Shown: piece after piece, positions 14,831-53,936 of the stretch
How positions within the stretch are numbered: the first letter of the stretch is position 1
Layout: every line of letters begins with the position of its first letter
From: Marsupella aquatica
Taxonomy: Eukaryota; Plantae; Marchantiophyta
Assembly: GCA_973895155.1 (NCBI GenBank)
Contig: OZ316895.1
Location: 16,188,816 to 16,252,815 of the forward strand
Reading direction: 5' to 3'
DNA length: 64,000 nt
The notes under the pieces: model-generated
Databases searched by the model: none
Told to the model about the DNA's origin: nothing
Seen by the model: only the letters and a program-made list of their open reading frames with translations
Made by a program: the position numbers and the translations under genes

Positions 14831-15031
14831 AGATGGGGGATGGTCGGATTGACCTAAAGCCACCCTCCAGCACCTTTCCCTCTGGAAAAAAGAATCCAAA
14901 CTCGGTCCATTTCAGGTGCATTAGCAAGGATGCTAGAGAGGGTGAAAGTGTGCATACGCTCAATAAGGTGAGATTGAAGACGGAAAGGCCGTCCAAGGAT
15001 AAAAATTCCTGAAAAGAAGGTAACACGACAC

Positions 15032-16930: not shown

Positions 16931-16939
16931 ATATGAAAT

Positions 16940-17280
16940 TAAGAACCACTCTTGCGGCTCCCTAGCAATACTCTCTTGGCAATATACAAAAAGTCAGCAA
17001 AACTCAAAAGACAACAAGAACCGCTTTTGCAACTCCATAGCAATACTCTCTTGGCAATATACAAAAAGTCAGCAAAAATTGATAGGCATTAAGAACCACT
17101 TTTGCAGCTCCATAGAAATACTATTCTTGCAATATACAAAAAGTCAGCAAAAATCAAAAGGCATTAAGAACCACTCTTGTGACTTGCTAGCAATACTCTC
17201 CTTTCAAAATCAAAAGTCAGCAAAAAGCAAAAGGTATTAAAAAACACTCGTGTGACTTGATTGCAATACTCTACTTGTTA
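16940..17280. repeat. Minisatellite, ~75-bp unit x ~4.5
   Basis: aagaaccactcttg..agcaatactctcttggcaatatacaaaaagtcagcaaaa units start near 16941, 17016, 17091, 17167, 17241; a partial unit also at ~13690. Confidence 0.85.
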
Positions 17281-27471: not shown

Positions 27472-28947
27472 TCGCCACGCCCTCAATGCCCAGTTCCATT
27501 CTTCGTCTCCGCTGCGTTTACCGTGCACTCCTTTCTGTGCCTTTGCGTTGCGTTTGGGCGAGAGTTGGTGTTGTTTTTCTGGTGGCTTCCTTGGCTTCCT
27601 TTCGCTGCTTCGAATCCCTGCCCTTCATCGGTTCCTTGCTCTGCGGCAGAGGGGGAGAGAGGGACGCAGTGGTGGTTTCGAATCTGTGAATCTGTGAATC
27701 TGTTCGGGTTTCGGAGCACCACTAACGCACAACACACGAGAGAGCGAGAGCGAGAGAGTCTGTTTCCGAGAGTGGGAAGGAAGTCCCCGTGTTTGTTTGA
27801 ATCTGTGAAAAAATTGGTTGGGAGCAGCGAGCGGGGTGTCGTTACTGGCCAGCCTGTTTTTCTGGTTCTTGCCAGGAAGAGGAGGGGGCGGGGGTGGAAT
27901 TCGTGGTTGTGCTGGTGTGGGCGGTAGGAAGAGGGAGGAGAGAAATAGACACCCGTTCTCAGTTGTGTGGCGATGGAGAGCATGTGGAAGAGGAGTGGGA
28001 GATGAGGAGAGAGGAGCACGGCGTTGCTGAGTGATGTGACTGCATTTTCTCCATTCCATTATTGAATCGCCGTTCTGCTTCCAGTCGAGTGCGGTGAATG
28101 TTAGCGATCGCCATCCGTGCATTTTTATTCGAATGCACAGTGACGATCGGTTTTTTGTGTCTGTCGTGGAGGAAGAGGAGAGGTCAGGACTGGCTGGGTT
28201 GTGGAGTGGTTAAAAATAGCGCAGTCTGGGGGTCCGTCCAAATCTGCCAAAGCATGAGGAGAACGGTCTGAGAGGTTTCTACCTATTCGGAAGTCTCACG
28301 CGTACACGGGAGTGTGGCGGAAGAAGCCGCTGGATTTGGAAAATGAGATAGGCACCTTGCGGCCCTGGATTGAATGCGTGGCACTGTACCGCTGCCGAAG
28401 TCTTCCCTCCTGCCCTTAGGAAGATTTCTAACCTGGGACAAGCACTCGTTTCCCTCGCCCTCGACTGAGTCCAGCAGTTTGCGATAGTCTTCATTGCCAT
28501 GATGCCTCGTCTTCCCTTCAGTAGAAGCTCCAGCTATAGAGCCCCAAGGTAACGTCCGAGGCCGTCGTGCTAGAGCCAGTGACGTTCGCTTTCTTCGGTG
28601 CGATCTTACAGTTTCCAATTTCCGGACTCTTCGATTTTAGAAATATTGGGAACTAGCGTGGATTTCTCCTGCGCTCTCTCGCTTGTTCCGGTTCTTAGCC
28701 CGTGTCATCGTGTCGCTCACACTGCTGTCTCCCATTCTCCAAGTGACGTCCATCAGATTTGTTCATGCCCTCTCGCGTCCTTCCTGCGTTCTAGCTAATC
28801 CTCAGGACCATCCCTTCCCGCCAACACGGCGGATGTGAAATTTTCGATAGCAATTGTTGTAGAGACTGCCCCGCCTTGGAGTGCAACTACCAGGTTTCCT
28901 GGCAAAGGTCTTCTGAAGCGTCTTAAAGCGTAGATGTCTGAAAAGCC

Positions 28948-31545
28948 ATGAGGAGTGCGTACCCTAGCTCTCAGTCATTTTTCGATTCTACGTCCGATTC
29001 GATCAGAGCAGAAGACATTGAGAAATGCAGGAGTAGTGCCTCGTTCAGTTCATTGGCGGACTTGTTCACAAACCCTTCTAGTAAATCTGACTTGTTCCCG
29101 CACACTAGGGCTCCCGTTTCCGTAGCAGAGGAGGTTCGTTTTCCTGCGAAGAAGAAGAGAGAGTGTGAAGAGAGGACCTCCATTTGGCACGAGTGGGGCT
29201 CCGGAGAATGTCAAAGTGAGAATGTCGCTGAGGAAAGTTCAGGTTTCACGTCAAATTTGATCCGTGGTGGCAAATCTTCGATCTTGTGTCCGAGTTCGTT
29301 TCCGAACCTGGGATCTGCCAATATCAGCTTGTTGACCGAGGACTTCACGTTCCCTGCTCGTAAAAGACGAGAGGAGGGAAGTTCCTGGCGTGAGGAGAGG
29401 ACTTCGTGGCAGGACTGGAGCACAAGCGTAGCTCCCAAGAGAAGAGAGCAAACAAGGACGGGTAGCTCCCCTGTAGTTGGTTCAATTCAGGATATGTACC
29501 TGAGTAAGCCCTGCACCAAACCGTTGGATTTTGTTATCAGCTCTAAATCGAGCCCTTTCTCTAGTCTTGGGGCTCCCGTGAAGAGCGCCTCGGAAGAGGT
29601 CTCCTTTCCAGCCAGGAAAAAGAGGGAGGAGAGAAGCTTCTGGCAGGAGTCTAGCTTGGATGGTAGCACCCAACCGGATTGTGTAGTCGTTGCGCCTCCT
29701 CGGCAGAGCGCGCCCGGTGTGGGTTCACTTGCAGATATGTATAAGAGAAAAGCACCTAGCGGCTTATTCTCCAAGGGCGCTGTCAGCGGCTCGGAGGAGG
29801 TTATTTTTCCCAAAAGAAGGAATAACGCAGACAGAAATGCTTGGAGAGATTGGACAAACACTGGATACAGTGACTATGAGGATGGAGAGGACCAGGATGG
29901 CTTCCGCGAAGAGAATTCACCTAAGCCTATTATGGTGGTCGTTGGCACGGAGACTGGCTTGGCATGTCCAGCAGTGAATTCACCATGCAGCATTGAAGGC
30001 TCTAGCAGATTCTCAGTTAGTGAGAATTCGCCATTGTCTGAATGTATGAGCAGATCGTCTGTTCGCAAACCAGGCGGTGGTGCAGTGGGTGCATTGCAGT
30101 CATCGAGCATTCAAGTACAAGTTTGTGAAGAGGTGTCGGGTCCCATCAAAGGTCTGATGTGCAATGTGGATGAATCAGGACACGTCGATCATCAAGCTGA
30201 GAGAACCATGGACGGGGGAGAGGCCTCTGATGTTACTGACGACATTGGGGCTAACGTAGATCATGTGCAGGAGGGAAGCTTTCGATATTTTACGAGTGGA
30301 CAGAGGCGTGGTCGAAGTACTGGTAAGTACCCACCACCTCTACGGTCTCTCTCGAGACCGGGACAATCTCGAGTCCCTACTCACATGCCATGGGTTCAAC
30401 TCCAACCTATTCGAAGCAAAGGGAGATTCGTACTGCAAGAGGTGAAAGTAACCCAGCCCGTTGTTTTTCAGCCCATCAGGACGGGGGGCCGCTTGGTTTT
30501 GCAGCTGATCGGACAAGAGAAGAGCTTCCATATAGGAGATGAAGTAGCGAGACACCGTGGAAATGGTGCAGTCGCCGAGGCTAAAGTCACAGTTACCTCA
30601 GGAAAGGGAGGCTTGCAAGAATCGTTGACGGTGAAGACAGAGGTGAAGGTAGTAGAGAAGACAGACGTGAGTCAATCCCTCGACAACGTTAGAAGAGAAG
30701 GAAGTGAGAGAAGGAAGATTTCCAATGTACGATCAGCAGAGATTGAGCAAAGGAAGAAATCTGCAAAAGTTTGGCCAGTCGTAGGAACGTCCTGGGAAGC
30801 ACTACCGGGAGACGGGGTTGCGGCTGATATGTGGGACAGGAAGTCAAGTAATGTTCGGGAGTTGCGGTACATGACAGACGAGATGGTTGTGTCTTCTGAC
30901 CGATGCCCCGAGCGGGACAGAACCATCCCTTCCGAGGGCGGCCTTGCTCCAGATAGATCGTGGCTCCTTGGGAAGTTGTCCACCGAAAGTAGAACTTTTG
31001 ATGCGAGAAAGTCACTGCATTCCGGAAGTCAATTCCGGAATGCGGTGGATCGTTTGGGGCAAAAGGGAAATGTCATCTCGATTCCCAGAGTGAGAGAAAG
31101 TGCTCCTCTTCGTCTGCAGTTCCAAACGTTGCCTCGAGCCGCAAGCTTGCGGAATGGGCTATCTGGGCTCAACTGCCCGCGCGTTGAAGGAGGAGGTAAT
31201 TTGGGAAGGAGCAGCAAGAGCATCAAGAGTTCGTCGCTTGCTGATGCTGCCGCGATAGAGTCTGGAAAGGAAGAGAGGACTTCGGATCCCGTTCCAGCTC
31301 GAGCTCAGGAGTCGAGACCTTCGCTTTCCGTGTACCAAGGGATAATTCGGGACAGTTTTCTAAGTTTAGCTACTGCACATTCTTTCTTAAGGTCTCTGAG
31401 GACGAGGCCTGACATTCCCGGCGAGCTTGACCCGAGAGTGCCAAGCTGTAAACCTCCTGTTGCATCTGTGTTTTCTTGCGCTGATGGGGTGGGTACACTG
31501 CATCATGAAAAAAACTTTTGGGAGCAGCAGCCGTGCGTGTCATAA
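28948..31545 (+). CDS. FANTASTIC FOUR (FAF)-like protein, 865 aa, single coding exon
   Basis: Intact long ORF with an in-frame stop just upstream; FAF domain YPPPLRSL...R.KGRFVLQEV...FQPIRTGGRLVLQL (30328-30510); upstream VGTETG motif; C-terminal FW..PCVS. Confidence 0.85.
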   Translation: MRSAYPSSQSFFDSTSDSIRAEDIEKCRSSASFSSLADLFTNPSSKSDLFPHTRAPVSVAEEVRFPAKKKRECEERTSIWHEWGSGECQSENVAEESSGFTSNLIRGGKSSILCPSSFPNLGSANISLLTEDFTFPARKRREEGSSWREERTSWQDWSTSVAPKRREQTRTGSSPVVGSIQDMYLSKPCTKPLDFVISSKSSPFSSLGAPVKSASEEVSFPARKKREERSFWQESSLDGSTQPDCVVVAPPRQSAPGVGSLADMYKRKAPSGLFSKGAVSGSEEVIFPKRRNNADRNAWRDWTNTGYSDYEDGEDQDGFREENSPKPIMVVVGTETGLACPAVNSPCSIEGSSRFSVSENSPLSECMSRSSVRKPGGGAVGALQSSSIQVQVCEEVSGPIKGLMCNVDESGHVDHQAERTMDGGEASDVTDDIGANVDHVQEGSFRYFTSGQRRGRSTGKYPPPLRSLSRPGQSRVPTHMPWVQLQPIRSKGRFVLQEVKVTQPVVFQPIRTGGRLVLQLIGQEKSFHIGDEVARHRGNGAVAEAKVTVTSGKGGLQESLTVKTEVKVVEKTDVSQSLDNVRREGSERRKISNVRSAEIEQRKKSAKVWPVVGTSWEALPGDGVAADMWDRKSSNVRELRYMTDEMVVSSDRCPERDRTIPSEGGLAPDRSWLLGKLSTESRTFDARKSLHSGSQFRNAVDRLGQKGNVISIPRVRESAPLRLQFQTLPRAASLRNGLSGLNCPRVEGGGNLGRSSKSIKSSSLADAAAIESGKEERTSDPVPARAQESRPSLSVYQGIIRDSFLSLATAHSFLRSLRTRPDIPGELDPRVPSCKPPVASVFSCADGVGTLHHEKNFWEQQPCVS

Positions 31546-35519: not shown

Positions 35520-36178
35520 GGCACTCATCACAACCCCAATATTAGCGATGTTTTCTATCTCTAATGTACATTGTGCACTGAACATGTTCCAAGACACAAA
35601 AGCCCCGGGTAACCACTAATGCTGCCTGCATACAGTATCACTCTTCCCTTTCCAAAGAGGCACTCAACCCCCACCATTTTGTTATCTGGATTTAAAAGCA
35701 CAAGCCACCATAGTATAGTGCCAATGTCGACATCCACAATTCCAGTTCCACAGAGGTGGAGCATTCAGCACCCTCAATCTGGATATCATTTTGCCTCTGG
35801 ATCATACCCTGTTCAGGTCTAAAGAAACGAGCCTCCCCCTCCTGTTTGACCACCAGTTTTTCCAGACAATCAGGTCCGAATTCCCTTACGGAGTGGATGG
35901 AGTTTCCATATGGCATCAAACGCCTCAGGGACCCCTAGCAAGTAACACATTTCATTTGGGGTCCCATCAAGCAAATCACTCTCAAGGGCCCCCACATATG
36001 TACATTTGTTATCTGGATTGTGCCAAATGCAAGCTTTATTTTTTTAGTTTTCCTATCAAGTGGGGTTCTAAAGATACCAGCCCTCCATTCCATACCGATC
36101 TTGTCCTTGATCCTGTGTAGGCAAACAGTCCAACTCCTTTCACAACACAAATAACAATGATTTAGCTGATTGGGTCTC
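35520..36178 (-). mobile_element. Decayed L1-like LINE, 3' part; target of the Gypsy-type insertion
   Basis: GGL remnant (reverse complement of ccagccctccattc, ~36077-36090) lies downstream of the FWS..WHWLS motif found on the other side of the insertion. Confidence 0.35.
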
Positions 36179-37236
36179 TGTCATGCCGAGGGACAGTGCC
36201 TTTTGTGCACATCGGCATGTCCCTCGCATGCCCGCTAGGTATGTAGTTAGGGCTAGTGTACTACTTGAGTTAGTGTCATGTTCTTGTAGCGAGTCTGGGC
36301 TGTTCTTGAAGCAAAAGGGGTTTGTTAGTGTGGCGCCTGGACCTGGTCCTACTTAGGGCATGTTTTTCTTTATCGTTCTTCAGTTCTTCTTGAATCGCTG
36401 TTGACAGAGCTCAGACAGTGCTCGTCGGTTCCGTACACAGGATTCACACAGTGATTCGTTAGATGCTCCCGGCCGATCTTGGCATCCCGCCAGTTTTTGA
36501 TTCAATTTCAGTACGATTGTTTCTCTTACGCCTTTTATTCAAGAAGAACTGCCGAGTTGGCGGTGAGGGGAAGAAGATAGAAGACATTCTCGTCTCAGAT
36601 GTTTATGTCGGTTCAGACAATTTCCGTCGAAACCGGTGCAATTTCTTTGAGCAACAATGGAGGGACGAGTTGAAATTATGGGTTCAATATGGTGTTATGT
36701 GTATACTTAACATAAGTATACACATAACGCTCCCGTTGGAGCCTGACTTTTCTTCCCAGTTGTACCCGGGGACCCTTTGCTGCTTCCGACTGTGGCTGCT
36801 GACTGCCACTACCTTTTTCGGGCCAATTTTGCGATGTTTTTGCAGGAGGGGCTGTCTGCATAGGGCCACGAGCCCCTTCTTGGCTGCGCCTCCCTGCGCC
36901 ATGCTACCTTCCGGCCGGCTACAAGCCACGGGTTGCAGGTCGATGCCTTTACTCTTGCTCGGAGCCCTGTAAAGGGTCGCACGCCAGGTTTATTTTCGCC
37001 TCACGGCTGTGTTCGTACTGCGTCCTTCTCCCTCTGTGTATACACATCGGGGGCGACAACCTTCCCTTACCATTTTCTTTTCCTTCTGCTCACCGGTACG
37101 TGCATAGGGCATCGTGCCCTCCACTCGATTAGGACTCGTTTTCTTTCTTTCCCCTTTGCCGTTTTCTTTCCTTCCCCCCGGTTGCCAGCACTTAATAGGG
37201 GAGAGGGAGCGAGTACAAGCGAGAGCTGAGAGAGAG

Positions 37237-37700
37237 AGGGCACGAGGCCCTATGAAGAATTAAGGAGGGGAGGGGGAGTTCACGTCGACTCCCCTCGGGA
37301 GCCCTGCCAAGCACGAGGCCCAACTTACAGGGCATTAGAGGAGGGGAAGGGAAGCGCAAGGAGTGGGCACGAAGCCCTATGCTGACATAAAGAGGGGGAG
37401 GGGGAGTAATCATTCGACTCCCTCTCTCGGGAGTCATCCTGCAGGGCACAGAGCCCACTTTTAGCATTAAAGCAGGGGAGGGGGAATTCAATTAGACTCC
37501 CTTCTCTTGGGGGTAGGTTCACCTGTGGCCAGGCAGGAGCGCAAGGAGAGGGCACCCGGCCCTAGGCAGCATTAAGAGGGAGTCGATTCCTTTTGCCAGG
37601 CCCAAAACTCATTTAAGGAGGGGAGGGGGAGTTAGTCGCTCCCTTCTCTTCGGGAGCACATCAGGAGCCAGGAGGGGGGGCGTGAAGCCCTATGCAGGGC
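37237..37700 (+). repeat. Array of ~6 degenerate GC-rich units in the retroelement leader
   Basis: Recurring gggcac..gccc, then attaaggaggggagggggag, then gactccc..ggga. Confidence 0.75.
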
Positions 37701-38486
37701 CCGAGCCATTGATTGGGGCCCCATTTCTTTCCTTTCGCTGTGCCCTCGCCCTTTTCTTTTTCGCCTCGCTTCGCTTTCTCTTTTATTCACCTGCAGCAAA
37801 GCGCACGGTGCCCCCGAGTGTGTATACACACTCGTTCGGTTGCCGGTCCCCACCTGATTTTTCTTTTCGGTAGACGCGCACCTTCTGTCAGTTCCCGGGT
37901 CCACATCGGGGCCCAATGTATACACATAACTGGGCCCCATGTTTATACATTTGAAAAGGCCCAGGTATACACATGGGACGGCAATCCGACATCGCCTATG
38001 TATACACATAGGCAAGCACAACGGGGACACAATTTGAGGTTTTAAGGGTCCCTTTCCCTGATGGTTTTTCGACGGTGACGGGTTTTCTCAGTGCTTACAC
38101 ATTCTACACATTTTTGCCTCGCATTGTTTGTTTCCTTTGTGGGTTTCATTTCCTAGCCTTGGGGCTGCCATTTCTTTTTCTTGTCAGTTTCTTTCCCATC
38201 GGCACCCCAAGTGAGCATGCAGCATGTCAGCAGAGGAGCCGACTCATAGCAGCTCATCGCCACCAACACCCAGGTACCACTTGCGGAGTGATCCACGATC
38301 GTTGGTGCCAATTTCATTGGAGTCTCGGCAATTTCGATGACGTCAACAGACAGCAGCAGCACCCACACCACGCAATCCTTCTGCTACATTTGGCGGTCGC
38401 TTCACCTCTACCCGAAGCCTGCTATCACTTCTTTGCCTTTTTCTCCTTCTGCATCAGTGATTGTTCCAGCTTCACCGACATACAGC

Positions 38487-39835
38487 ATGGATGCCAGTCA
38501 CTCATCTAGCTGCATTGAGCGCTTCAGCGGGCGGCCAGGCACTGTCTCTTTACGTGAGTTCAAATCCACTTTCTACACTGTCGTTTATGAATTGGTGTTG
38601 AAGTATGGCAGCAATTTCACAAATGCTTTTGCATTTAAGTAGCTAGCCAGGTATGTGCACCATGAGGCTTTGGATGTGTATGAGCAGCACTCTCAACGGC
38701 TGCTTGCTGTCACACAGTTGCCTAACCCTACGTATGCCAGTGCAATTGCGGCGGCCTCACAATTGGCCTTACAGAATGCCATTGCAGCCCATGCTGCTGC
38801 TCCTGCCACTTCCCCTCCTACTCCAGTTCCTACCACTGCGCCAGTTACTCCCACTGTCTTGGCACAGGCTACATCAGGCATTTGTCCCACCATTGATTCC
38901 CCTGCCTTTGCTGATCCAATGGCTGAGTTTTTCCAGGTTCTTGAATTGGAATTCCCAATCAAGAGTGCTGATAAAATCATGCAGTTGGCCACCTTTGTGA
39001 GGCAGCGCGATGAAACATTGAAGATGATGTATCGCCGGCTTCTCAAGCTAAAGGAGGACACCCAGAGCATCACTGACCTGGAAGCTGCTCATCGCTATCT
39101 TTGCGCATTGGAGGGCACACCAGCTCTCCATTTTCAAGTGTTGTAGCAAGTATTCTCAGAGTTTGGAGACAACTACACCTTGCTCAATGTCTATGACACT
39201 GCTGAGAAACTTGAGTTGGCCCATGCACATTATGAGGCCAGTATTGCGCGTCCACCGCGATCCAGGTACCAAGCTACTGCCCCTACACTGGCCACTCCTT
39301 CCCGTGTGCCACAGTATGGTTCCAAGATCAAGCCAGCACATGCTGCTTCATGCTGCCATCTTGCAACTACTGTGGTAACCCTAATCACAAGGCTAATGAA
39401 TATGATATTGTTGTTGAGGACCTGTCTTGTGATTTTTGCGGGAAAGTGGGCCACTTGGAGGCAGTTTGTTTTGCCAAATTCCCCGATAAAAAGCAGCTAC
39501 GACAGCAGGCCACTCATCCTGCTCCTGTTTCCACTCCCCCACCAGCTAGGAGGGCTCCTACTGCATCAATTGCTCCTCCTTCCAGTGGCAAAGCATCCAG
39601 TCATAACAAATTGCCCAAGCAGCAACAGAAGCAACCAGCTCAGAAGGACGCTCACAACGCACAGGCAACTCAACTCCAGTCTCTGACTCATGAGGTTGAG
39701 TCATTACGTGCCCAACTTGCCAACATCAAAGGCAAGTCCACTGCCTCTCCTAGTCCTTCTCAACCGGCTGGTCACGTGCAACCCATCCCTAGCCTAGGCA
39801 CCACTGACAGTTCATCACCCATACCCGCTCTTTCT
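38487..39835 (+). pseudogene. gag: Retroelement gag, disrupted
   Basis: MDASH..IERFSG..; in-frame TAG at 38640 and 39144; frameshift ~39345; zinc knuckles CNYCGNPNHKANEY (last Cys lost) and CDFCGKVGHLEAVC. Confidence 0.8.
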
Positions 39836-40629
39836 ATGGCTTGCCATTTGATGCTCATATGGGTGAGTGTGTGCTGTCCTCTGCTACACAGCCTGGCCGT
39901 ACAGCAGAATTTTCAGATTCATTCTGCCCTTCCTATTTTGCTTACCAGCAGGCCAGTGCTGCCTCCCGTATTGCTCCCACACGCCGCATTGTACAGGCTG
40001 ATGGTCTTGCTGCTGGTCCTATGACTAGAGCCAGGGGAGCTCGGGCTGTCATGCCCCAATCTTTTCAGCCACTCACACTTGCTGAAGAGCGCACCTTGTT
40101 GGCGAGGGGCGAGGGAGCTGTAGCTACATCCATTCCACCACCAGGTGCTGCTGACATTTCACAGGGAGTTGTTTTTCCTGAGCTGCTTGAGCATTTCACC
40201 TTCGGTATGGCACAAAGGATTCTTACCACTCCACTTTTCAGTTGCCATGATTTACAGTTGGATGCTAGAGCTGTCATCAGAGCGCTAGAGGGCTCACTGC
40301 ATTCTTCATCAGCCCCTGTGACACCGGTTTTGGAGGTCCAATCTCATGTACATCCTGGACCTTCTTCTTCTCCATTACATGCTTCCACTGGTTTGGCTAT
40401 CCCAGTACCGATTTCTAGTGGTAGAGATGACAGTATTGCTGCAGATTGTGTGACCAGAGCTACACTTGATTCTGGTCATGCTGCTCCATCTTTCTTGGCT
40501 ATGCTGTTGAGTGGGAAGACCGTGGACACTAACTCCCTTCACAAGGTACCTCATCATTTGCCAAAAGTGGTGCCTAGTGACAGGACTTTAGTTTCCACCA
40601 CCATTGCCATTGTTGACAACAGGAATTCA

Positions 40630-40980
40630 GCAGTCAAGTTGGAGGGTCACACTCCTCAGGTGGTCATGCTAGACACAAGCGCTCAACCAGTAATCTTGGG
40701 CATTCAGTTTGCCAAGAAGATGGGACTGCTGACTGATCATTTACAGCAATCCAGGTGGCACATTCGGACTGCTAGTGGCACTATGAAGGATGTGTTGGGT
40801 GAGAGTTCTACTTTACTCACTCTCACTTTTAATGGAGGTACAGATCAGGAACTGCATTTCCCAGTCAGATGTTTGGTTACCAATGCCACTACGTATGATG
40901 TGCTCATTGGCCAAGAGGCTTTGTTCCCACCAGGTTTTACCATTAACAACTGGCATGAGCATGCATACTACAGAGTTGAT
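40630..40980 (+). pseudogene. Retroviral-type aspartic protease domain
   Basis: VMLDTSAQ (Asp codon 40672; DTG reads DTS), IRTASG flap, YDVLIG. Confidence 0.8.
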
Positions 40981-41337
40981 TGGCATACGGATGGCTCACA
41001 CTTGGGATACATTCCACTTGATTTGCATGGTGCCCATACCCCTATGGCTCACCACTGTGTGTTGAAAGCAGTGCACACAGCTACCTATGTCAACCACCCA
41101 TTGCAGGATTGGATTGAGGAGGATGATGATGAGGTGGCTACTGCACATGCTGCTGCACGTATAGCAGCCCTTTCCAGCAACGTGGATCATCAACCAGAGG
41201 TGGTACAACGGCTCCAAGCAGCCCATGGACCTTTGGTGGCTGCATTGCACAAATTTGAGGACCTTGGGCAGCACAATGGACAACCAATAGCCCCAATCTT
41301 GAGCGCACCAGTTACATGGACTCCTCCTTCAGATGGC

Positions 41338-42275
41338 CTTACATTGCTTGAGCTTTTTGGTGGCATTTCTACAGGCCTGGAAGCTCTCCTAAAGTCTGGC
41401 ATGGTGGTGAAGCAGTACATCTATGTGGATATTGATCCAGGTGCAAGGCAAGTGGCTGAATCCCGTCTGCTGGAATTTTCAGAGCGATTTCCCCAACAGT
41501 TTCCGCATAGTGCATGGACGTCTGCATTTTCTTTCTTCCCTCCAGATATCCAGCTTGTCCAGCACCGGCACTTAACCCTTCTTGGCTCCCTTGATTTGAT
41601 CATAGCTGGTTGGGAATGCCAAGGGTTTTCAGCTGCTGGTCACGGTGCTGGACTGCATGATTCTCGTTCTGGCCTTTTCACAGCATTGGTTCAAATTCTC
41701 ACCTGGGCTCAATCCCTTTATCCTGCTATTGGTTATATCATTGAGAATACTCCATCTCAGTTTGACCAGCGTCCACAGGTCAAAGAGGATTTCAGTGTGG
41801 TCCAGCACTACTTGGGACCACCCCTTCTCATTGATGCAGTGCACTGTGGTTCTTATGCACATCGTCTTCGTAACTTTTGGACTAACCTTGCACCACCTTC
41901 CTTGCTGGAGATGGCTCTTCACCACACATCCAGGGACACTAACCTCACAGTGGACCAGATTTTGGATGCTGACAGTCCTTGCGAACCAGTTACACGGCAA
42001 GAGCCAACACCTTGGTATCCAGCCAATACCATTGGACAACCCCGTGCTGCTTGGCCTACATTTGTGTCCTTTCCAGGTGCACATGCTTTTTAGGGTGATG
42101 GTCCTGGTCTGGTTTATCGACATTCTACCGGTACATGGGATGAACCTAGTCCTGAGGAGAGAGAACGGGCTATGGGCTTCCAACCCGGTACTACAGGTCA
42201 CACCAAAATCACCAGGCTGGCCAGGAATGCTTTACTTGGCAGGGTAATGGATCTCAATGCTCTCACTTGGCTTAT
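41338..42275 (+). pseudogene. C5 cytosine DNA methyltransferase domain, DNMT3-like, inside Pol
   Basis: Motif I LELFGGISTG; II YIYVDID; III DI; IV DLIIAGWECQGFSAAG (Cys 41617); VI IIENT; VIII AHRLRNFWTNL; after one TAG (42091) in the same frame, IX EERERAMGF and X TRLARNALLGR. Confidence 0.92.
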
Positions 42276-42629
42276 GGTCACTTGCATCCTTTTTCAGGTG
42301 TCCATTCCTCCAGCATTAGGAGCTCCAGCCCTACCACTCCACAGTGTTGTTGCATGGCATCCAGACCAGGTGCACTTACCTCTGTCCAACACTCACCACT
42401 TCAGTCCAAGTGTTGGGGGGGAGGAGGTCCCTTGTAATGCGGCTGACATTATTTCTGAGTTTCATGGTGTGGACCACTTCAGATCAGCAGGTACAACAGG
42501 CCTTGGAGAGGCCTCATCACCTTATCAGCAGCATGCTAGCAGCTTGGACAGTGGAGAGGCTGGCACTTCTGGCTCTTCAAGCACGAGTACATCAGGTCCT
42601 ATTCCTAGTGTTGCCAACTACACATTTAT

Positions 42630-44040
42630 CATGGGCAACCACCTGAGTAAAAGACAGAAGGACCAACTGCTGAATTTTCTCCTCAAGCATGAGAATGTGT
42701 TTGCTTTCTCTATGAAGGACTTGGGTAAGTGCAAGACTATGCAGTTCTCCATTGAGTTGGTTGATGAAACACCTATCTTCAGGCGGAGACACCGTTTGAG
42801 TAAGCATGAGTGGCAGCTGGTGGATGAGAGGTGCCAAGAGCTCTATGAAGCTGGTCTTATTCAGCCATCTACATCAGATTTTGCAGCAGCTACAGTGATG
42901 CCAGCAAAGAAGGATTCCAGTGGATTGTGGACAGAGAAGCGCATGTGTGGGGACTACAGGCCATTGAACCTGGTCACACCCCATGACAGGTACCCCATGC
43001 CGCGGCCAGAGGAGCTATTTGACAGTATTGGAGACTCAGACATCTTCACTCTTGTGGATCTAAGGCAAGGCTTCAACCAGATTTTGCTGCTTGCAAAGGA
43101 TCGCAAGAAAACATCTTTCCATGGTAGTAACCAACTATGGGAGTGGTTGGTGATGCCATTTGGCTTGAAGAATGCGCCCATATTCTTTCAAAGAGTCATG
43201 GACCAGGTTCTTCAAGGTGCTGAGTTTCTGAAATGCTACATTGATGATGTGTTGGTCCACAGCAAAGGATTTGACCAGCATCTACTTGACCTTGAGGAGC
43301 TATTCATGAGGCTTAAGAAGGTGAACCTAAAGATACAGCCCAAGAAGTGTGAATTTGCTGTCAGATCAGTAGTATACCTTGGGCACCGCATTCTTCCAAA
43401 TGGAACCATGGCTCACTGGGCCAAGGTGGCATCCATCTTGGAAATGCCCACTCCTACCGACGTTCACACTTTGAGGAGCTTTATTGGGTTGTGCAATTAC
43501 TACCGGATCTACATCAAAGATTTTAGTACCATTGCACACCCATTGTACTCTTTGTTGAAAAACAATGTGCCTTGGACATGGAGTACAGATGCTGAGGCAA
43601 CATTTGCCACTTTGAAGGAGAAGCTCTCAAAATACCCAATGCTAAGAAGACCTGATTTCAGCAAGGTCTTTGTGCTACACACAGATTGGAGTGCCCTTGG
43701 GATTGGTGCCATTCTGGGCCAGCATGATGAGGAAGGTAAAGAGTATGTCATTGCCTATGCATCCAGGAGCAACAATCAGGCAGAGAGTCATTATTCTTCT
43801 TATGAGGGTGAATGCCTTGCTGTTGTGTGGGCTATCATACATTACAGGCCCTACCTCTATGGGACCAGGTTTGTTCTCTACACCGACCACCAGCCCTTGA
43901 AGTGGTTGATGACCAATGACAAGCTTACTGGCAAGCTTGCTCGTTGGGCGCTCATACTCCAGGAGTATGATTTTGAGGTAATTCATAGGCCTGGTGTGAC
44001 ACATCAAAATGCTGACACTATGTCCTGCAGCCCTTTGATT
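42630..44040 (+). pseudogene. pol: Reverse transcriptase + RNase H (Ty3/Gypsy)
   Basis: RMCGDYRPLN, DLRQGFNQ, VMPFGLKNAP, YIDD (43237-43248), YLGH, FIGLCNYYR; RNase H LHTDWS, YEGECLA, TDHQPL, NADTMS. Confidence 0.97.
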
Positions 44041-44294
44041 GCCTCTGATGATCCCTCAGATGCACGGTAGGATTTTGACCAGGTTTCCATCCTGCCTACA
44101 TTTCATGCATCTACCTATCTTGCTTTGTTGCCATGCTACATTGTTGACCAACCTGTGGTGGACATATGGGAGAACAACGACACTCTGAGATTTTTGCAGG
44201 ATGGGGAGTACCCCACCCATGTTACTGCTGCCCAGAGAGACCGAATTCAGCAAAGGTCCAAGCGCTACTTGTGAAAGGGAGATTATCTTGTGCC

Positions 44295-45400
44295 GCTGCT
44301 TGCCAGACAGGGAAGTGGTGGTTCCACCCATTCATGAGAGGGTTGGCCTTATCCGTAAGGTACATTCTAAGCTTGGTCATTTTGGTGTTAAGAGGACTTA
44401 TAGCCTCTTGGTCCCCCATTATCATTGGAGAGGCATGCATGGCTAGGTTCGAGATGTTATTGCCCGGTGTGAGCAATGTGATAGGGTAAGGACTTCTTTC
44501 ACATCTCGGCAACCCACACTTCATCCACTCCCTATTCAGGGCATGTTTTATCGTTGGTCATGTGATTTGGCTGGAGAATTACCCCTCACATCTCGGGGTA
44601 ATCTCTACATCATGATCATGATAGAGCATTTCTCCAAGTGGATAGAACTTGTGGCATTGCCAGATAAGACCTCCCGTAGCACCAGCCAGGCATTCTTGCA
44701 ACAAGTTCTCAGCCGCTTTGGAGCTTGTGCATAATGTCTCACTGACCAGGGCTCAGAGTTTAGAGGAGAGTTCCAGGAGCTGCTTGATCAGGCTCTCATT
44801 GATCATCGCCGGACATCACGAGATCACCCACAGGCAAATGGCTTGGCAGAGCGCATGGTTCAGACATGCAAGAAGGGCCTTCGGAAGATCTGCCTCACCA
44901 AAAACAAGGAGGATTGGGACCTGGCCTTACCCTACATTGCCATGGGGTATAGGATGTCCAGACATGCATCATTGTCTAACTTTTCTCCCTACTTCTTGTT
45001 GTTTGGTCGTCACCCAGTTCCACCTTCTGCTATTGCTTCTCACATGCTTCAGGTGGTGGACTTGGATTCAGCTGTGACTTGGTCTGATGTGATCTCTGAG
45101 AGGGCTGCCCTATTCAGGAGGGTTATGCCCATGGCCATGGAGAATTTGGCCATTGCACAGCTCAGGGACACACTGCGTTATGCACACACACGAGGGGGCA
45201 CTTTTCAGCCCAAGGTCAGGAAGTTTGAAGTGGGAGATTTTGTGTACTTGCAGCGGCAAGCTAACGACACCCTGGACACCTCTACCAGTCGCACTATTCT
45301 CAGGGTCAAAGCTATTCGACCGTTTGGAGTGCTAGAGTTACAAGGGGCAGATGGGCGCACAATTGCTGACAATGCCAAGAATTGCGCCCCTTGTCATCTG
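44295..45400 (+). pseudogene. DDE integrase, disrupted
   Basis: HSKLGH...CEQC zinc finger; WSCDLAG, TDQGSEF, NGLAERMV catalytic triad; FEVGDFVYL; stops at 44444 and 44732; frameshift ~44292. Confidence 0.95.
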
Positions 45401-45457
45401 CCTAACCTGGATCCCACCATTGTGACTTCTACTTGGATTCCACCTGTGGACTACCCT

Positions 45458-45592
45458 TGCAAAGTGTGTTTGCGAATTGATGATGCTTACCAGATGCCGC
45501 TGTGTGACAATTGCAATGGAGGGTACCATCTTTTCTGCCTTCGGCCTGAACTTCCCCAGGTGCCAGAAGGGTTATGGTTTTGCCCTTCCTGT
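45458..45592 (+). other. PHD finger fused to the integrase C-terminus
   Basis: C4-H-C3 pattern: CKVC..LCDNCNGGYHLFCLRPELPQVPEGLWFCPSC; ORF stop at 45610. Confidence 0.92.
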
Positions 45593-45825
45593 GCTCCACG
45601 TGCTATCTGACTTTTCTTCAGCCCTCCTTTTGGCTGTGGTCTGGGGGGGATACAGAGGTTTACACCTCCACTACGTACATACCACCTCAGTTGCTTTTTC
45701 TTGGCACTTGTGAATGTGATTGAACTTTTTCTATGCATGTTGGTTGCTAGCAGCTTGCACATATGCATTGCCGGTGACTTGTATGTTTTCGATACACTAT
45801 GGCTACGATACTATATGTCACGACA

Positions 45826-46560
45826 TCTCCCACTTAGCCAATGCCACTGCTTTTTGCTCAGACTGCTCCAGAAATGTTTTGCACCAACCCAAAATTTTGC
45901 AACCATCCAAGCCTCCTAAACCCTGCCAAAAGCCCATTCAAAATGTCAGTAGGAAGAACTCAGCTGCCAACCAAAGAGAATAAGTTGAAGGTCATCTTGA
46001 CCGCTAAAGCCTGAGACTAAAATTAAGGCGCTGCAATTTAAAGTAAATTGTCTCAGTCCATAAGAATGAAACAGAGCAGCTGGTTAATCTCGAGGAGGGA
46101 TTATCCAAATTGCCGAAAGAATCATGGAGGGAAGAACTGGGTAAACCAAGTGCAAGTGAAGTTTTCAGCACCTTAATAATTTTTTCTCAAGGATATTGAA
46201 TGCAGATCAATCAAGCTACCATATTTGAGGCATTGGACCACATGAGAGAACTGAAAAATTTAGAGACAGTTTGCAAATTGAGAAAAATATGAAATTCCTG
46301 TGCTTAAACAACAAATATTTGTAAATTGATAGTTGGAGATGCTAGTAGACAAATGAAGACCTTAAACAACTCTTGCCTCAATGCCTCGATGTTGAATACC
46401 AACCTAAACACTAAACACTTGCTTGGGGAAACAAATCCAGAGGAATGCCCGAAGTGTGAAAGACCACACAAGCCAAGTGAACAACAGAAGCAAACCAAGG
46501 CCATCCCAAAGATACAAGACACGGCTAAGAATCCAACTGACAAGTGTATGCTAAATTCAA
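45826..46560 (-). mobile_element. Decayed L1-like LINE, upstream part of the element split by the Gypsy-type insertion
   Basis: Minus strand reads LGLP (~46140-46155) and FWSSLSKKQWHWLS (~45833-45875), typical post-RT L1 motifs. Confidence 0.4.
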
Positions 46561-47888: not shown

Positions 47889-48770
47889 GGCCATGCCTCG
47901 ATACATTGTTGTAAGTGCCACTCTCTCTGCATGACAGCAAAGAAACCACGCATTTTGGCTCTTGGTTTGAGTTTAGTTTGCCCAAGTTAGGGCCATAGTT
48001 GAGTTGGTATTCTAGCTTGCAAGATGAACTGGGTCTTCTTGAAGCAAAGCCGTTGTTAAGGGCACCTTTGGCATCATCCTCTATTTAGGTCTGACTGGGC
48101 CCATTGTCACTTAGTTTTCTTGAATTATTGTTGAGGCATAGCTCGCCACTTGGTAGATGGATTTTTAGACAGTGATTTGTTGGATACTCTCTTACATTCC
48201 AATTTTAGTACTCATTTTCTTCTATGGCCCTGCGTTTGCCCATTTGCATCCTTTGTGCCTTCGTCACCCACAACCATGGCCATCCCCTTTGGGCTTTTAG
48301 TATGTTTAGTGGCCTCCTGCACTTCCTCCACAAGTTTCTGTTTGTTTCTAGCCGTGACAACACCTGCAGGTTTTCATCCATTTTCAGGCCTGTAGCTCCT
48401 CCTTTTCCTGCACTTTCCAGCTGTGCACATATATGCACTTTGGGGACAGTCAACAACGTGATGGGCCTTTTCTGGTCCATATTTTTCACAAGGAAATAAG
48501 GGCTGAGCACTGTTTGCCTCACTTTACTCAACCTTTTTGGCTCTCGCACCTGTGTACACGAAGCAATGGGGCCATTTTTATGCCTGTCCCCATGTTTTGT
48601 AGGATGTCTCAACATGCATCATTATCTAGTTCCTCTACTTAGGTTTGGCTATTTGGGTAGGCACCCACTTCTACCTTCTCCTATAGCCGTCCATCATTAT
48701 CTAGTTCCTCTCCTTAGGTTTGGCTATTTGGGTAGGCACCCACTTCTACCTTCTTCTAGCCGTCGTGACT
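47889..48770 (+). mobile_element. Old, internally deleted relative of the 36179 element
   Basis: 5' part matches the family 5' end (catgcc, ttcttgaagcaaa, ttttcttgaat, acagtgatt.gtt.gat.ctc); 48590-48690 matches integrase 44940-45037; local ~72-bp tandem duplication at 48618-48762. Confidence 0.65.
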
Positions 48771-49362
48771 AATAATAGAACCTAGCCAGTATATCAAAGT
48801 CATGTAACTCATCAGTAGTCAACTTGCACACAATCTCACTGAAAACTTACATACTAGCATAAATAGGTGTGTTGAGCCAGGTGTCACATGATACACCAAA
48901 AAAGTAAATATATGCAATCTATATAACTAGAGAAAGCTAGATTTGGGGTTAGGCTTTTAGAGTGACTACTCTAGAGGGTGACTGTAGGGCCCCGCCAAAC
49001 CAAAATTTATGTGGATAGAAAGAAGGATGAGATGTTATGTATGTGTAAATAATATTAGTTGTCCCAGCATGAGTGACCAGTGGTAGCAGTCTTCATTGCC
49101 GAGTGCGATTATGAGTTTAAGTTTTATAAGTATATTTTGCATAAACAGCCATCCCAAAGTTCAACAAAGCCTTTTGCCCACAAAGTACTTTACACTTAAA
49201 TTAATGTGTATCAACCAAATGGAGATGGGCAGGCCCAAGGGTTTATAAGTGGGTTCCAGGAACTAAAGCGAATACTCAGAAAATCTCACCAAGTATAGTG
49301 AATATTTTTGTTTTCTGTCACACCAATGCTTTTTGAAGGTTTGTGCATAAATTCAAAGAGCT

Positions 49363-49713
49363 GATGCTGTCTCGTTAAGGAAGTAGCTTGAAATTGATAC
49401 CAGAGTCATAGCTCACATTATTCTGGGTTGTGATACTCGCTCGTTAATGCTAAAGCTTGAACTTGATACTAAAGTCACACCAAATATTATTATGGGTTGT
49501 GATGCTGTTCCGTTGATGTTAAAGCTTGAAATTGATACCAGAGTCACACCAAACATTACGGGTACTCTGGGGTGTGGTCCTGGCTCGTTAATGCTACAGT
49601 TTGGAAGTTGGAACTGATACCAGAGTCACACCAAATATCATTCTCGGTTGTGCATAAACTCGAAGAGCTGATACTGGCTCTTCAATTAATGCTAAAGCTT
49701 GAACTTGATACCA
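49363..49713. repeat. Minisatellite, ~68-bp degenerate unit x ~5
   Basis: Recurring cgttaatgctaaagcttgaa.ttgataccagagtcacaccaaa.att. Confidence 0.8.
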
Positions 49714-52464: not shown

Positions 52465-52795
52465 TGTTGAACTAAGATGTCATTCGCAACGACCATACAA
52501 CCATGACTCATTCCATGCACACGTAGTCGACAAAATCTCTACGTGGTTCACCTCTTCTCCAAGGCTACGTCCACACGAACACTCAAGCTTTACTTCAAGA
52601 GTAGACGAACACACATTCCTCCCTCTTCCTCAAGTTTCTCCGTTACAATGAGTAAGCATCACATACTAGTGGCTTACACTAGCCCTGGTATATACAAGGT
52701 CACACACGACTAACCTAACCTCAGCTAAGACCCTAACTGTGGTTAGCCTAAGTGCCGTAATCTTTGAGTCACAAGACTAAGAGCAATCCTTAACA
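52465..52795 (-). mobile_element. Solo LTR (Copia-like), 5-bp TSD AATAC
   Basis: aatac|tgttgaac...ccttaaca|aatac; reverse complement aligns end to end with 53572-53901. Confidence 0.88.
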
Positions 52796-53404
52796 AATAC
52801 ACCCTGTGAAAGCCATCAGCCATATCTATGAAGCATTGAGACTCCCTATTGTTACCAGGTAGACCAAACTCAATTCTAGGCTAATCACGAGCATGCCCAC
52901 TCCCAACCGTAGTGTTGAAATAAATATTATACTAAGTAGGCAAACTAGGAACCAGACATTAACCAAGCGAGAGATCAATCCAGTAGGGCAAGCATGTGCA
53001 AAGGTGCCCACTGCCTGACCATAGTATTGAAATGAACATTATACTAGGCATGATAGGAACCAAAGGGTAACCAAAGCATGGATCAATGAGAGACCAATCA
53101 AATAGGCAAGCGGGTGTAAAGGTTGAATCCTTCTAAAGACTTTACTTCATCCCACCCAAAAGTGGGTTCACAAAAATTTTAGACACTTAGAAAACATGAC
53201 CATAGTTTATGCATCAGACAAAGGGGCAACCTGGAATGAGTGCTTAGGGCTCATTAAAGCCTTTGACCTGAATAAATTTCATATGGAAGTTAGTAAATTT
53301 GGTGGGCACATGTGTAGCCAGGGGTACTGCCTTATGCTTAAATCCTATACAATTTTGGTATTCTGTTTGATAGTATAAACAAAGCATAGTGTGTCAGGCA
53401 TCTA

Positions 53405-53936
53405 CCAAGAAAAGACTTAACAGGATCTCTCTAGCATCTCTTGGACTTAACAGTCCAGCAAGATGCCATGAAGACTTAATAGGACTCCTTAACAGGACCT
53501 CTATGACTGCCAATCTTGCCCAGGTCTTGATGGCATTTTACTCACAAGGGTCCGGTTAAGTCCAAAAGATGTGTTAAGGATTCCTCTTAGTCCTGTGACT
53601 CATAGGTTATGGCGTTTAGGCTAACCACAGTTAAGGACTTAGCTGAGGTTAGGTTAGTCGTGTATGACCTTGCATATACTAGAGCTAGTGTAAGTCGTTG
53701 GTAGGTGGTGCTTGCTCATTGTAACGGAGCAACTTGAGGAAGAGAGAGAGCTTTGTGTGCGACTATTCTGAAGTAAAGTTGTTGTGTTCATGTGGACGTA
53801 GCCTTGGAGAAGAGGTGAACCACGTATGGATTGTGTCGACTACATGAGCATGGTATGAGTCATGATCGTATCGTCATGAAGGAAGACGTCATAGTTCAAC
53901 AAGATGCCAGAGGGGTCTTGTTAAGTCTTTTCTTGG
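53405..53936. mobile_element. MITE (family of 1749-1875) interrupted by a solo LTR
   Basis: ccaagaaaagacttaacagga ... tcttgttaagtcttttcttgg; internal sequence is the reverse complement of 1790-1860. Confidence 0.75.
53572..53901 (+). mobile_element. Solo LTR (Copia-like), 5-bp TSD AGATG
   Basis: agatg|tgttaagg...gttcaaca|agatg; motif gtggacgtagcc..ggtgaaccacgta. Confidence 0.9.

What the first reader, a model, noticed from the sequence alone, without database searches (positions are those of the whole stretch)
41338..42275. DNMT3-like cytosine methyltransferase built into the Pol polyprotein of a Ty3/Gypsy-type element
Seen: a full ordered set of C5-MTase motifs lies in the same frame as, and between, protease and RT, broken by only one TAG. 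Motifs VIII (AHRLRNFWTNL) and IX/X (ERAMGF..TRLARNALLGR) closely resemble the DNMT3 catalytic domain (AHRARYFWGNL, SRLARQRLLGR). Established: retrotransposon-borne DNMTs were reported in dinoflagellates and charophyte algae (de Mendoza et al. 2018), so the concept is not new. I know of no characterisation in a land plant, which the FAF gene suggests this host is. Inference: the protease would release the MTase inside the particle, where it could methylate new cDNA before integration or mark the insertion site.
Basis: partly seen in the sequence, partly recalled or inferred. Interest (0 to 1): 0.92.

Follow-up and report, generated by a model that had tools for sequence, protein, structure and literature searches.

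The report
Liverwort retrotransposon carrying DNA methyltransferase
This is a broken copy of a Gypsy-type jumping gene, likely in a liverwort, whose polyprotein includes a DNMT3-like DNA-methylating domain that intact relatives would likely use to mark their own new DNA copies; this kind of element was described in a charophyte alga, and relatives turn out to be spread across green plants, including the model liverwort Marchantia.

Summary
Confirmed. A DNMT3-like domain lies in frame between protease and RT of a decayed 9,647-bp Ty3/Gypsy element (36179-45825, 4-bp target duplication). The fold and PDB searches rank DNMT3A/B first. The host is likely a leafy liverwort. It is no one-off capture: 259 near-full homologous domains keep the catalytic Cys, Glu and Arg residues. 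Named hosts include Marchantia, Closterium, Klebsormidium and four chlorophyte genera; the chlorophyte elements carry the domain between RNase H and integrase. Selection on the DNMT matches that on RT (median dN/dS 0.40 vs 0.39). It belongs with KnitGypsy-Dnmt3 (de Mendoza 2018). Not found in print in my searches: land-plant members, Glu-Cys instead of Pro-Cys in most homologs, a C-terminal PHD finger, a Tf1-type self-priming signal, and ends lying inside the LTR (relatives A-coding-B-A-B; this copy A-coding-B), which suggests integration from a circular cDNA. Activity, protease release and cDNA methylation are untested. This scan found the same kind three times before, in peat moss.

The parts
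36175..36178 (+). Left target-site duplication (4 bp)
   Evidence: Same 4-mer follows the right end at 45826-45829
36179..36536 (+). 5' terminal unit A, starting TGTCATG; inferred to be the distal U3 plus R-U5 part of a permuted LTR
   Evidence: Start motif shared with A units of relatives and with window copy 2; end set by the primer-site pairing. A profile built from the relatives' A units does not detect it: it has diverged
36381..36395 (+). Predicted transcript 5' end, complementary to the primer-binding site
   Evidence: 15-nt exact complement of 36537-36551, 0 of 300 shuffles reach this; paired in both MFE and centroid folds, though the z-score of the whole stretch is only -1.53
36537..36551 (+). 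Predicted self-priming primer-binding site (Tf1 type)
   Evidence: the paired sequences differ together between window copy 1, copy 2 and relatives
36552..38486 (+). Long 5' leader with imperfect G+C-rich repeats
   Evidence: 37234-37351 matches 37361-37483 at 74%; sequence
38487..40617 (+). Gag region, broken by two stops and two frame changes; zinc-knuckle-like motifs
   Evidence: Collinear with open relative P0003 in three frames, 52-66% identity; stops; zf-CCHC only weak, E 0.017
40618..40935 (+). Aspartyl protease (triad reads DTS in this copy)
   Evidence: Pfam gag-asp_proteas E 3.7e-05
41308..42285 (+). DNMT3-like C5-cytosine methyltransferase domain, one in-frame TAG at 42091
42763..43395 (+). 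Reverse transcriptase (YIDD at 43237)
   Evidence: Pfam RVT_1 E 9e-28
43573..43980 (+). RNase H
   Evidence: Pfam RT_RNaseH E 1.6e-38
44318..45439 (+). DDE integrase (zinc finger, core, C-terminal part), with a frame change before it and two stops
   Evidence: 58% identity to open relative P0007, which has Integrase_H2C2 and rve; stops
45440..45610 (+). PHD finger at the polyprotein C-terminus; predicted reader of the unmodified H3 tail
   Evidence: Pfam PHD E 7.9e-10; PDB best matches CHD4, WSTF, ATXR5, KDM5, BAZ2; no Trp at the cage position in any of 126 motif matches
45643..45649 (+). Polypurine tract (G7)
   Evidence: a G-run precedes the first B unit in relatives
45650..45825 (+). 3' terminal unit B (176 nt), ending CACGACA; inferred proximal part of U3
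   Evidence: Same start, length and end motif as relatives' B; not detected by the relatives' B profile
45826..45829 (+). Right target-site duplication (4 bp)

Best explanation
This is a dead copy of a green-plant Ty3/Gypsy lineage, likely in a leafy liverwort, whose polyprotein carries a conserved DNMT3-like domain that in intact elements likely methylates cytosines, probably CG, in the element's own newly made DNA before or as it integrates. Shown: domain order Gag-PR-DNMT-RT-RH-INT-PHD, DNMT3 fold, near-invariant catalytic residues, purifying selection like that on RT, kinship to the Klebsormidium element, 4-bp target duplications, and ends that fall inside the LTR unit. Inferred cycle: (1) The RNA starts inside A and primes itself by pairing with the site just after A, as Tf1 does. 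(2) Reverse transcription gives [B-NN-A]-internal-[B-NN-A], because B starts at the PPT and A ends at the primer site. (3) The two ends join, giving the variable A|B joint seen in relatives. (4) Integrase opens the circle at the internal CA-NN-TG site, giving A-coding-B-A-B. (5) This copy's A-coding-B form arises from a one-LTR circle, from cutting both internal sites of a linear cDNA, or from later B-B recombination. (6) The DNMT, packaged as part of the polyprotein and probably cut free by the protease, methylates the cDNA, while the PHD finger would steer integrase to chromatin lacking H3K4 methylation, much as the ADD domain steers DNMT3A. The new copy would arrive pre-marked and quiet, which limits harm to the host or avoids surveillance of unmethylated DNA.
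For: Fold: pLDDT 94.5, and all 33 listed Foldseek rows are DNMT3A/B/C. Profile ranks DNMT3A 1e-23, DNMT3B 2e-20, 4onj (a DRM structure, recalled) 3.5e-13, HhaI 2e-09. In 259 near-full domains: motif IV Cys 258, motif VI Glu 259, motif VIII Arg 256 and 257. Window vs 26 distinct loci: DNMT mean pN 0.24 with pS 0.73, saturated; among loci, median dN/dS is DNMT 0.40 (325 pairs), RT 0.39 (190), RH 0.38 (171), PR 0.44 (136). Klebsormidium KFL_013780020 aligns over 576 columns at 28%, E 5e-57. Target duplication exact in 5 of 7 elements with both ends mapped, 3/4 in one, absent in one. B-A-B in 16 of the 22 loci with a B hit; 2-nt spacer at 11 of 11 B|A junctions listed; variable A2|B2 joints. Self-complementarity of 13-16 nt in 6 of 11 cases (0/300 shuffles) and 11 nt in one (6/300). 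Dinoflagellate retrotransposon DNMT3 domains methylate CG in yeast, and cDNA methylation was proposed there (PMC5890265).
Against: No activity data for this lineage. The Klebsormidium domain gave no methylation in yeast (called inconclusive because DNMT3B also failed). 160 of 259 homologs, including this one, have Glu before the catalytic Cys and only 84 have Pro; the effect is unknown. CpG depletion of the elements (o/e 0.38-0.42) is no stronger than in most flanks (0.19-0.54), so it gives no self-methylation signal. Self-priming complement not above chance in 4 of 11 cases, and the window copy has no TATA-like box where 7 of 9 relatives do. A two-LTR circle opened at either internal site should also give A-B-A-coding-B, but none of the 11 loci with an upstream A hit has a B hit before it; this bias is unexplained. 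L037 has both ends but no target duplication.
Confidence: 0.6

Rival explanations
1. The domain is kept for binding, not for methyl transfer to the cDNA. It grips or covalently traps cytosines in cDNA or RNA, or acts as a decoy or partner for host DNMT3, so that host silencing is blunted or redirected.
For: Pro-to-Glu change in motif IV in 160 of 259 homologs; no activity of the Klebsormidium domain in yeast; the domain sits in two different places in the polyprotein (37 before RT, 177 after RNase H, 45 undetermined), so it need not work with RT.
Against: The SAM-binding motif I Gly (245 of 245 aligned), motif X Gly (241) and all catalytic residues are kept across streptophyte and chlorophyte members, as expected of a working enzyme; related dinoflagellate domains are active.
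Confidence: 0.17
2. The enzyme is active, but its target is chromosomal. It travels with integrase-PHD and methylates the insertion site and the flanks, or other copies in trans, after integration.
For: In 177 homologs the DNMT lies directly before integrase; a PHD finger of the unmodified-H3 reader type ends the polyprotein, the same pairing of functions as in DNMT3A.
Against: In this subfamily RT and RNase H separate DNMT from integrase. In about 25 stored relatives, including Marchantia, the ORF ends 69-170 aa after the DNMT, placing it with Gag rather than with integrase.
Confidence: 0.18
3. The split ends come from ordinary events after insertion (nested or tandem insertions, recombination) in a conventional LTR element, with no circular intermediate.
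For: All DNA copies examined are old and decayed (motif IV intact in only 14 of 25 loci); B-B recombination alone can give the window's A-coding-B form.
Against: The same layout recurs in about 11 distinct insertions with a fixed 2-nt spacer. One target duplication encloses the whole A-to-second-B unit in 4 of 5 full-layout copies. The same layout is described for the Klebsormidium element (Fig. 4 legend).
Confidence: 0.05

Closest known systems
KnitGypsy-Dnmt3 of Klebsormidium nitens (de Mendoza et al. 2018, PMC5890265; read parts 1-4 of 7, figure legends only, searched the peer-review file and data table; main supplementary PDF too large to read)
   Same: Intronless DNMT3-related domain in a Gypsy polyprotein; protease-then-DNMT order and direct homology to K. 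nitens KFL_013780020; DIRS-like A-coding-B-A-B repeats in close relatives; purifying selection on the domain.
   Different: Land-plant host; Glu-Cys at motif IV (the K. nitens protein has Pro-Cys); this copy has only A-coding-B. The text I read does not mention a PHD finger, target duplications, self-priming or chlorophyte members, but Fig. 4c and Supplementary Fig. 13 could show some of these and were not seen. That KFL_013780020 is one of the paper's KnitGypsy copies is my inference.
Animal DNMT3A/3B catalytic domain; plant DNMT3 and DRM
   Same: Unpermuted motifs I, IV, VI, VIII, IX, X; fold TM-score 0.82 by target length to 6w89.
   Different: About 20% identity; about 50 residues longer; GWEC in place of GSPC; no PWWP or ADD; embedded in a polyprotein.
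SymbioDIRS-Dnmt3 and split-direct-repeat DIRS-type elements (PMC5890265)
   Same: DNMT3 in Pol; A-coding-B-A-B layout.
   Different: DDE (rve) integrase and 4-bp target duplications here, a tyrosine recombinase there.
Self-priming Ty3/Gypsy elements (Tf1/Sushi group; plant Tcn1 clade, Neumann et al. 2019, PMC6317226, passages)
   Same: No tRNA-type primer site; predicted pairing of the RNA 5' end with the primer site.
   Different: Those elements have two complete LTRs and usually a chromodomain; this one has a PHD finger and split ends. Lineage placement against REXdb was not tested.
EpiLTRs (bioRxiv 10.64898/2026.05.21.726589, passages)
   Same: LTR elements with a cytosine methyltransferase plus a chromatin reader.
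   Different: Their DNMT is sister to DNMT4 and comes with a DAM domain and a chromodomain; the preprint calls it distinct from streptophyte Gypsy-DNMT3.

Membership tests
Gypsy-DNMT3 (KnitGypsy-Dnmt3 kind) | Gypsy domain set and order (PR, RT, RH, then DDE integrase) | tested here: met
Gypsy-DNMT3 (KnitGypsy-Dnmt3 kind) | Intronless DNMT3-related domain inside the polyprotein frame | tested here: met
   continuous PR-DNMT-RT in open relatives P0007, P0012, P0116, P0236
Gypsy-DNMT3 (KnitGypsy-Dnmt3 kind) | Homology to the Klebsormidium retrotransposon DNMT | tested here: met
   P0204 = K. nitens KFL_013780020; E 5.4e-49 and 36% over the domain; 576 columns over PR plus DNMT, E 5e-57. Deep branches among streptophyte-type domains are unresolved
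Gypsy-DNMT3 (KnitGypsy-Dnmt3 kind) | DIRS-like repeats A-coding-B-A-B | tested here: inconclusive
   This copy has A-coding-B with intact target duplication and no second A-B. Close relatives: B-A-B in 16, single B in 5, A-B at a distance in 1, no B hit in 17 of 39 loci. Read as a derived form of the same layout
Gypsy-DNMT3 (KnitGypsy-Dnmt3 kind) | [quoted passage not shown] | tested here: met
   values include neutral decay after insertion, which affects RT equally
Gypsy-DNMT3 (KnitGypsy-Dnmt3 kind) | De novo cytosine methylation activity | not testable with these tools
   Not shown for the Klebsormidium domain either
Canonical DNMT3 enzymes | C5-MTase motifs in unpermuted order with catalytic Cys, Glu, Arg-x-Arg | tested here: met
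Canonical DNMT3 enzymes | Pro-Cys dipeptide in motif IV | tested here: not met
   Glu-Cys here and in 160 of 259 homologs; filed as DNMT3-like, not as a canonical DNMT3
Canonical DNMT3 enzymes | DNMT3 fold and closer similarity to DNMT3 than to DRM, DNMT2 or bacterial enzymes | tested here: met
   viral contigs give only weak matches, best E 1e-10, mostly 26-35% identity over part of the domain
Canonical DNMT3 enzymes | Nesting within the host DNMT3 clade in a tree | not tested
Conventional two-LTR Ty3/Gypsy element | Two direct LTRs flanking the internal region | tested here: not met
   No repeat between the two ends of the window copy
Conventional two-LTR Ty3/Gypsy element | TG...CA termini, short target duplication, PPT | tested here: met
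DIRS/Ngaro-type tyrosine-recombinase retrotransposons | Tyrosine recombinase as the integrating enzyme | tested here: not met
   rve integrase and 4-bp target duplications; no recombinase family among the Pfam hits
REXdb plant lineages (Tcn1, Chlamyvir, Phygy, Selgy) | RT/RH/INT phylogenetic placement | not tested
   Reference sequences not held; passages of PMC6317226 contain no 'PHD' and no methyltransferase domain

The most novel reading that the evidence does not exclude
One old Gypsy lineage spanning chlorophytes, charophytes and bryophytes combines a working DNMT3-derived enzyme, often with a Glu-Cys active-site loop, with an H3K4me0-reading PHD on integrase. It primes itself and integrates with a DDE integrase from a circular cDNA opened at an att site inside the LTR: a retrotransposon that inserts from a circle, pre-methylated and chromatin-targeted.
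Probability: 0.3. Interest if true: 0.85.

Novelty: new variant of a known kind. Interest (0 to 1): 0.6.

Why it matters
Why a transposon would carry the enzyme class that silences it has been open since 2018, and the known hosts (Symbiodinium, Klebsormidium) are hard to work with. The same lineage has many open Gag-PR-DNMT frames in Marchantia polymorpha (18-member cluster at 90% identity, several about 1,281 aa), a genetic model, so the question becomes testable. It also qualifies the published statement that methylase-encoding transposons are absent from 'land plants, such as tracheophytes' (PMC6338049, passage): bryophytes have them, and no vascular-plant name appeared among my hits. Hundreds of such domains can inflate DNMT counts in algal and bryophyte genomes. 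If the circle-integration reading holds, it is an unusual route for a DDE-integrase retrotransposon, and LTR finders would miss these elements.

Tried and rejected
No genome is held for this window and no sequencing-run data were obtained, so copy number, intact copies and expression in this host stay open. ESM Atlas gave no usable hit. The scan's own notes gave nothing by sequence or by place. A FastTree result placing this subfamily's DNMT next to the chlorophyte-type domains (support 0.995-0.997) suggested domain transfer between lineages. I rejected it: the careful tree did not reproduce it and the AU test on RT did not reject that grouping (p 0.146). Both trees group the chlorophyte-type members together (RT 88/90, DNMT 98/92). 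One capture versus two cannot be told without host DNMT3 as a root. CpG depletion as a self-methylation signal was uninformative. The PR and DNMT labels were shifted by my coordinate error and were redone. Profiles of the relatives' A and B units do not detect the window's ends; those ends rest on terminal motifs, target duplication, PPT and the second copy. Motif IV Glu as decay was rejected (160 of 259 homologs). A host gene captured by chance was rejected.

Full report
OBSERVATION. The frame 39808-44070 is open except for one TAG at 42091. Pfam finds, in order, an aspartyl protease (weak, below cut-off), DNA_methylase (above cut-off), RT and RNase H. A further frame holds integrase and a C-terminal PHD finger, E 7.9e-10. 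Motifs I, IV, VI, VIII and IX lie at 41356, 41611, 41740, 41860 and 42157, followed by motif X. PDB search of the domain ranks DNMT3A first. A 46-sequence profile ranks DNMT3A 1e-23, DNMT3B 2e-20, 4onj (a DRM structure, recalled) 3.5e-13, HhaI 2e-09 and DNMT2 7e-04. The AlphaFold model, with X at the stop, has pLDDT 94.5, and all 33 listed Foldseek rows are DNMT3A, B or C (top E 2.2e-18, TM 0.70/0.82). The copy is dead: two stops and two frame changes in gag, an altered protease triad, stops at 42091 and 44068, a frame change and two stops in integrase. Relative P0003 reads across the position of the TAG, so that stop is particular to this copy.

HOST. The single-exon ORF 28942-31545 carries a FAF domain. 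Its five homologs are all liverworts, the best being Calypogeia fissa at 59% over the 311 aa searched. The host is therefore likely a leafy liverwort; this rests on one gene. No genome is held.

FAMILY. The domain finds 102 proteins among 3,643 candidates of 781-2,485 aa, and 2,137 / 747 / 262 representatives of 50% clusters at E 1e-3 / 1e-10 / 1e-30. The profile adds 137 long proteins, 120 listed. Of 327 stored proteins, leaving out 39 cluster mates, 259 align over at least 250 residues: 37 have the DNMT after protease or before RT, 177 after RNase H or before integrase, 45 undetermined. Named hosts of the first type are Marchantia polymorpha, Closterium and Klebsormidium nitens. Named hosts of the second type are Chlamydomonas eustigma, Chromochloris, Monoraphidium and Haematococcus. 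Most hits are unnamed metagenome proteins, and no vascular-plant name appeared. Across the 259, the catalytic Cys is kept in 258, motif VI Glu in 259, and motif VIII Arg in 256 and 257. The residue before Cys is Glu in 160 and Pro in 84, so Glu-Cys is a lineage trait. About 25 relatives, among them the Marchantia copies, end their ORF 69-170 aa after the DNMT; I infer a Gag-PR-DNMT first ORF there but saw no DNA for them. All searches started from the DNMT, so sister elements lacking it could not be seen.

CLOSE RELATIVES AND SELECTION. A metagenome scan gave 39 loci from 94 pattern matches. 20 of the 39 show the full order PR-DNMT-RT-RH-INT-PHD, 18 show part of it, and one (L038) has RNase H before the DNMT. 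After merging loci at 97% identity, 26 remain. Against the window, DNMT pN is 0.24 and pS 0.73, saturated (RT 0.14 and 0.75). Among loci, median dN/dS is 0.40 for DNMT, 0.39 for RT, 0.38 for RNase H and 0.44 for protease. These are decayed copies (motif IV intact in 14 of 25), so the values are raised by neutral decay in all domains alike.

ENDS OF THE ELEMENT. The window copy has no repeat between its two ends. It starts TGTCATG at 36179 and ends CACGACA at 45825, between two copies of one 4-mer. Relatives have two units, A (about 315 nt, starting TG) and B (about 175 nt, starting at the G-run PPT and ending CA). The layout after the coding region is B-A-B in 16 loci (about 11 distinct insertions), single B in 5, A-B at a distance in 1, and no B hit in 17. 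A 4-bp duplication encloses the whole unit exactly in L011, L016, L022, L028 and the window, with one mismatch in L019, and not in L037. The first B and second A are separated by exactly 2 nt in 11 of 11 junctions listed, while the joint of second A to second B varies by a few bases. The sequence just after the 5' A is complementary to a site inside A: 15 nt in the window copy, 14 in the second window copy, 13-16 in four loci (each 0 of 300 shuffles), 11 in one (6 of 300), and not above chance in four. The paired sequences change together between the groups. Seven of nine relatives have a TATA-like box 31-42 nt upstream of the matched site; neither window copy does. Self-priming of this kind is described for the Tcn1/Tf1 group (PMC6317226, passage). 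Hence the canonical LTR would be B-NN-A, and integrated copies are a permuted form with ends at an internal CA-NN-TG site. The simplest reading is integration from an end-joined circle. The likeness to IS3-family circle junctions is recalled, not tested. Against it, the mirror product A-B-A-coding-B was not seen in any of the 11 loci with an upstream A hit.

MECHANISM. Shown: anatomy, fold, residue conservation, selection, termini. Inferred: activity on cDNA, CG preference, protease release, circle integration, PHD specificity. The PHD's closest solved relatives are CHD4, WSTF, ATXR5, KDM5, BAZ2, PHF21A and AIRE fingers, which I recall as readers of the unmodified H3 tail. None of 126 motif matches has Trp at the methyl-lysine cage position, and 112 have Gly. 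That would parallel the ADD domain of DNMT3A (established knowledge). CpG depletion does not discriminate. Overall I give self-methylation of the new DNA 0.6, chromosomal targeting 0.18, and a binding or decoy role 0.17.

TREES. RT and DNMT trees both group the chlorophyte-type elements. An apparent sister relation of this subfamily's DNMT to them did not survive. The trees used subsets: 81 DNMT and 49 RT rows (all named and streptophyte-type rows plus 35 random others), 22 rows and 28. No host DNMT3 was available as a root.

LITERATURE. de Mendoza et al. 2018 (PMC5890265; parts 1-4 of 7; supplement searches; main supplementary PDF and figures not seen) describe KnitGypsy-Dnmt3 with DIRS-like repeats, purifying selection, no activity of the Klebsormidium domain in yeast, and propose cDNA methylation. 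K. nitens KFL_013780020 is among my hits and aligns over protease and DNMT. Passages of PMC12344493 (table search) and of bioRxiv 10.64898/2026.05.21.726589 (supplements not seen) mention the kind only as 'streptophyte'. PMC6338049 (passage) says methylase-encoding transposons are absent from land plants such as tracheophytes. Passages of PMC6317226, PMC12885004, PMC11982613, PMC6453930, bioRxiv 10.1101/2021.11.30.470311 and 10.1101/2022.06.16.496473 show no DNMT-bearing Gypsy element; the last notes a PHD in Chlamydomonas Gypsy-7a. Nine full-text searches found no description in land plants or chlorophytes and no account of the permuted ends. The library lacks most subscription papers, theses and Repbase reports, and 'streptophytes' may already cover bryophytes in unseen supplements. 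This scan's notes report the same kind three times in peat moss, once with split terminal repeats (unchecked AI notes).

VERDICT. Real and correctly identified. A land-plant variant of a described kind, with a wider range, an altered active-site loop and an unusual end structure. Interest 0.6.

Noticed in passing
window 60600-61950: Second, internally deleted relative of the element: A unit and primer site joined directly to the 3' part of integrase, PHD and B (80% identity to 44940-45689). Its self-priming pairing is kept; no clear target duplication.
   Followed up: partly
window 47980-48760: Third fragment with pieces matching the A unit and the integrase C-terminal region; ends not resolved.
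   Followed up: partly
window 28942-31545 (+): 867-aa single ORF with a FAF domain, best match Calypogeia fissa; CpG o/e 0.78, higher than its surroundings.
   Followed up: yes
window 52465-53901: Long inverted repeat (arms of about 330 nt, 83-85% complementary, 770 nt apart), partly matching 1780-1863; looks like a DNA transposon remnant or MITE.
   Followed up: no
window 16914-17276 and 49362-49650: Degenerate tandem arrays of 75-nt and 69-nt units.
   Followed up: no
window 14263-14853 (-): 196-aa frame with a Cys/His cluster that I recall as resembling the C-terminal region of non-LTR retrotransposon proteins; not scanned.
   Followed up: no
window 37000-38020: Leader of the element holds several copies of a TGTATACAC-like palindromic motif and G-rich imperfect repeats.
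   Followed up: no
P0090, P0031, P0288: Some chlorophyte-type members add further modules: SH3 plus a weak chromodomain hit (P0090), G-patch (P0031), a weak Tudor-like hit (P0288).
   Followed up: no
P0291: A full chlorophyte-type polyprotein is annotated as from a bacterial MAG but groups with Monoraphidium; probably algal DNA in the bin.
   Followed up: partly
P0010 cluster: Marchantia polymorpha has many Gag-PR-DNMT gene models annotated as hypothetical proteins, several on the male sex chromosome (Mp_Vg names).
   Followed up: partly
L008:597-2688 (-); L032: L008 holds a distant RT-RH-INT element next to the DNMT element; L032 holds two family copies tail to tail.
   Followed up: no
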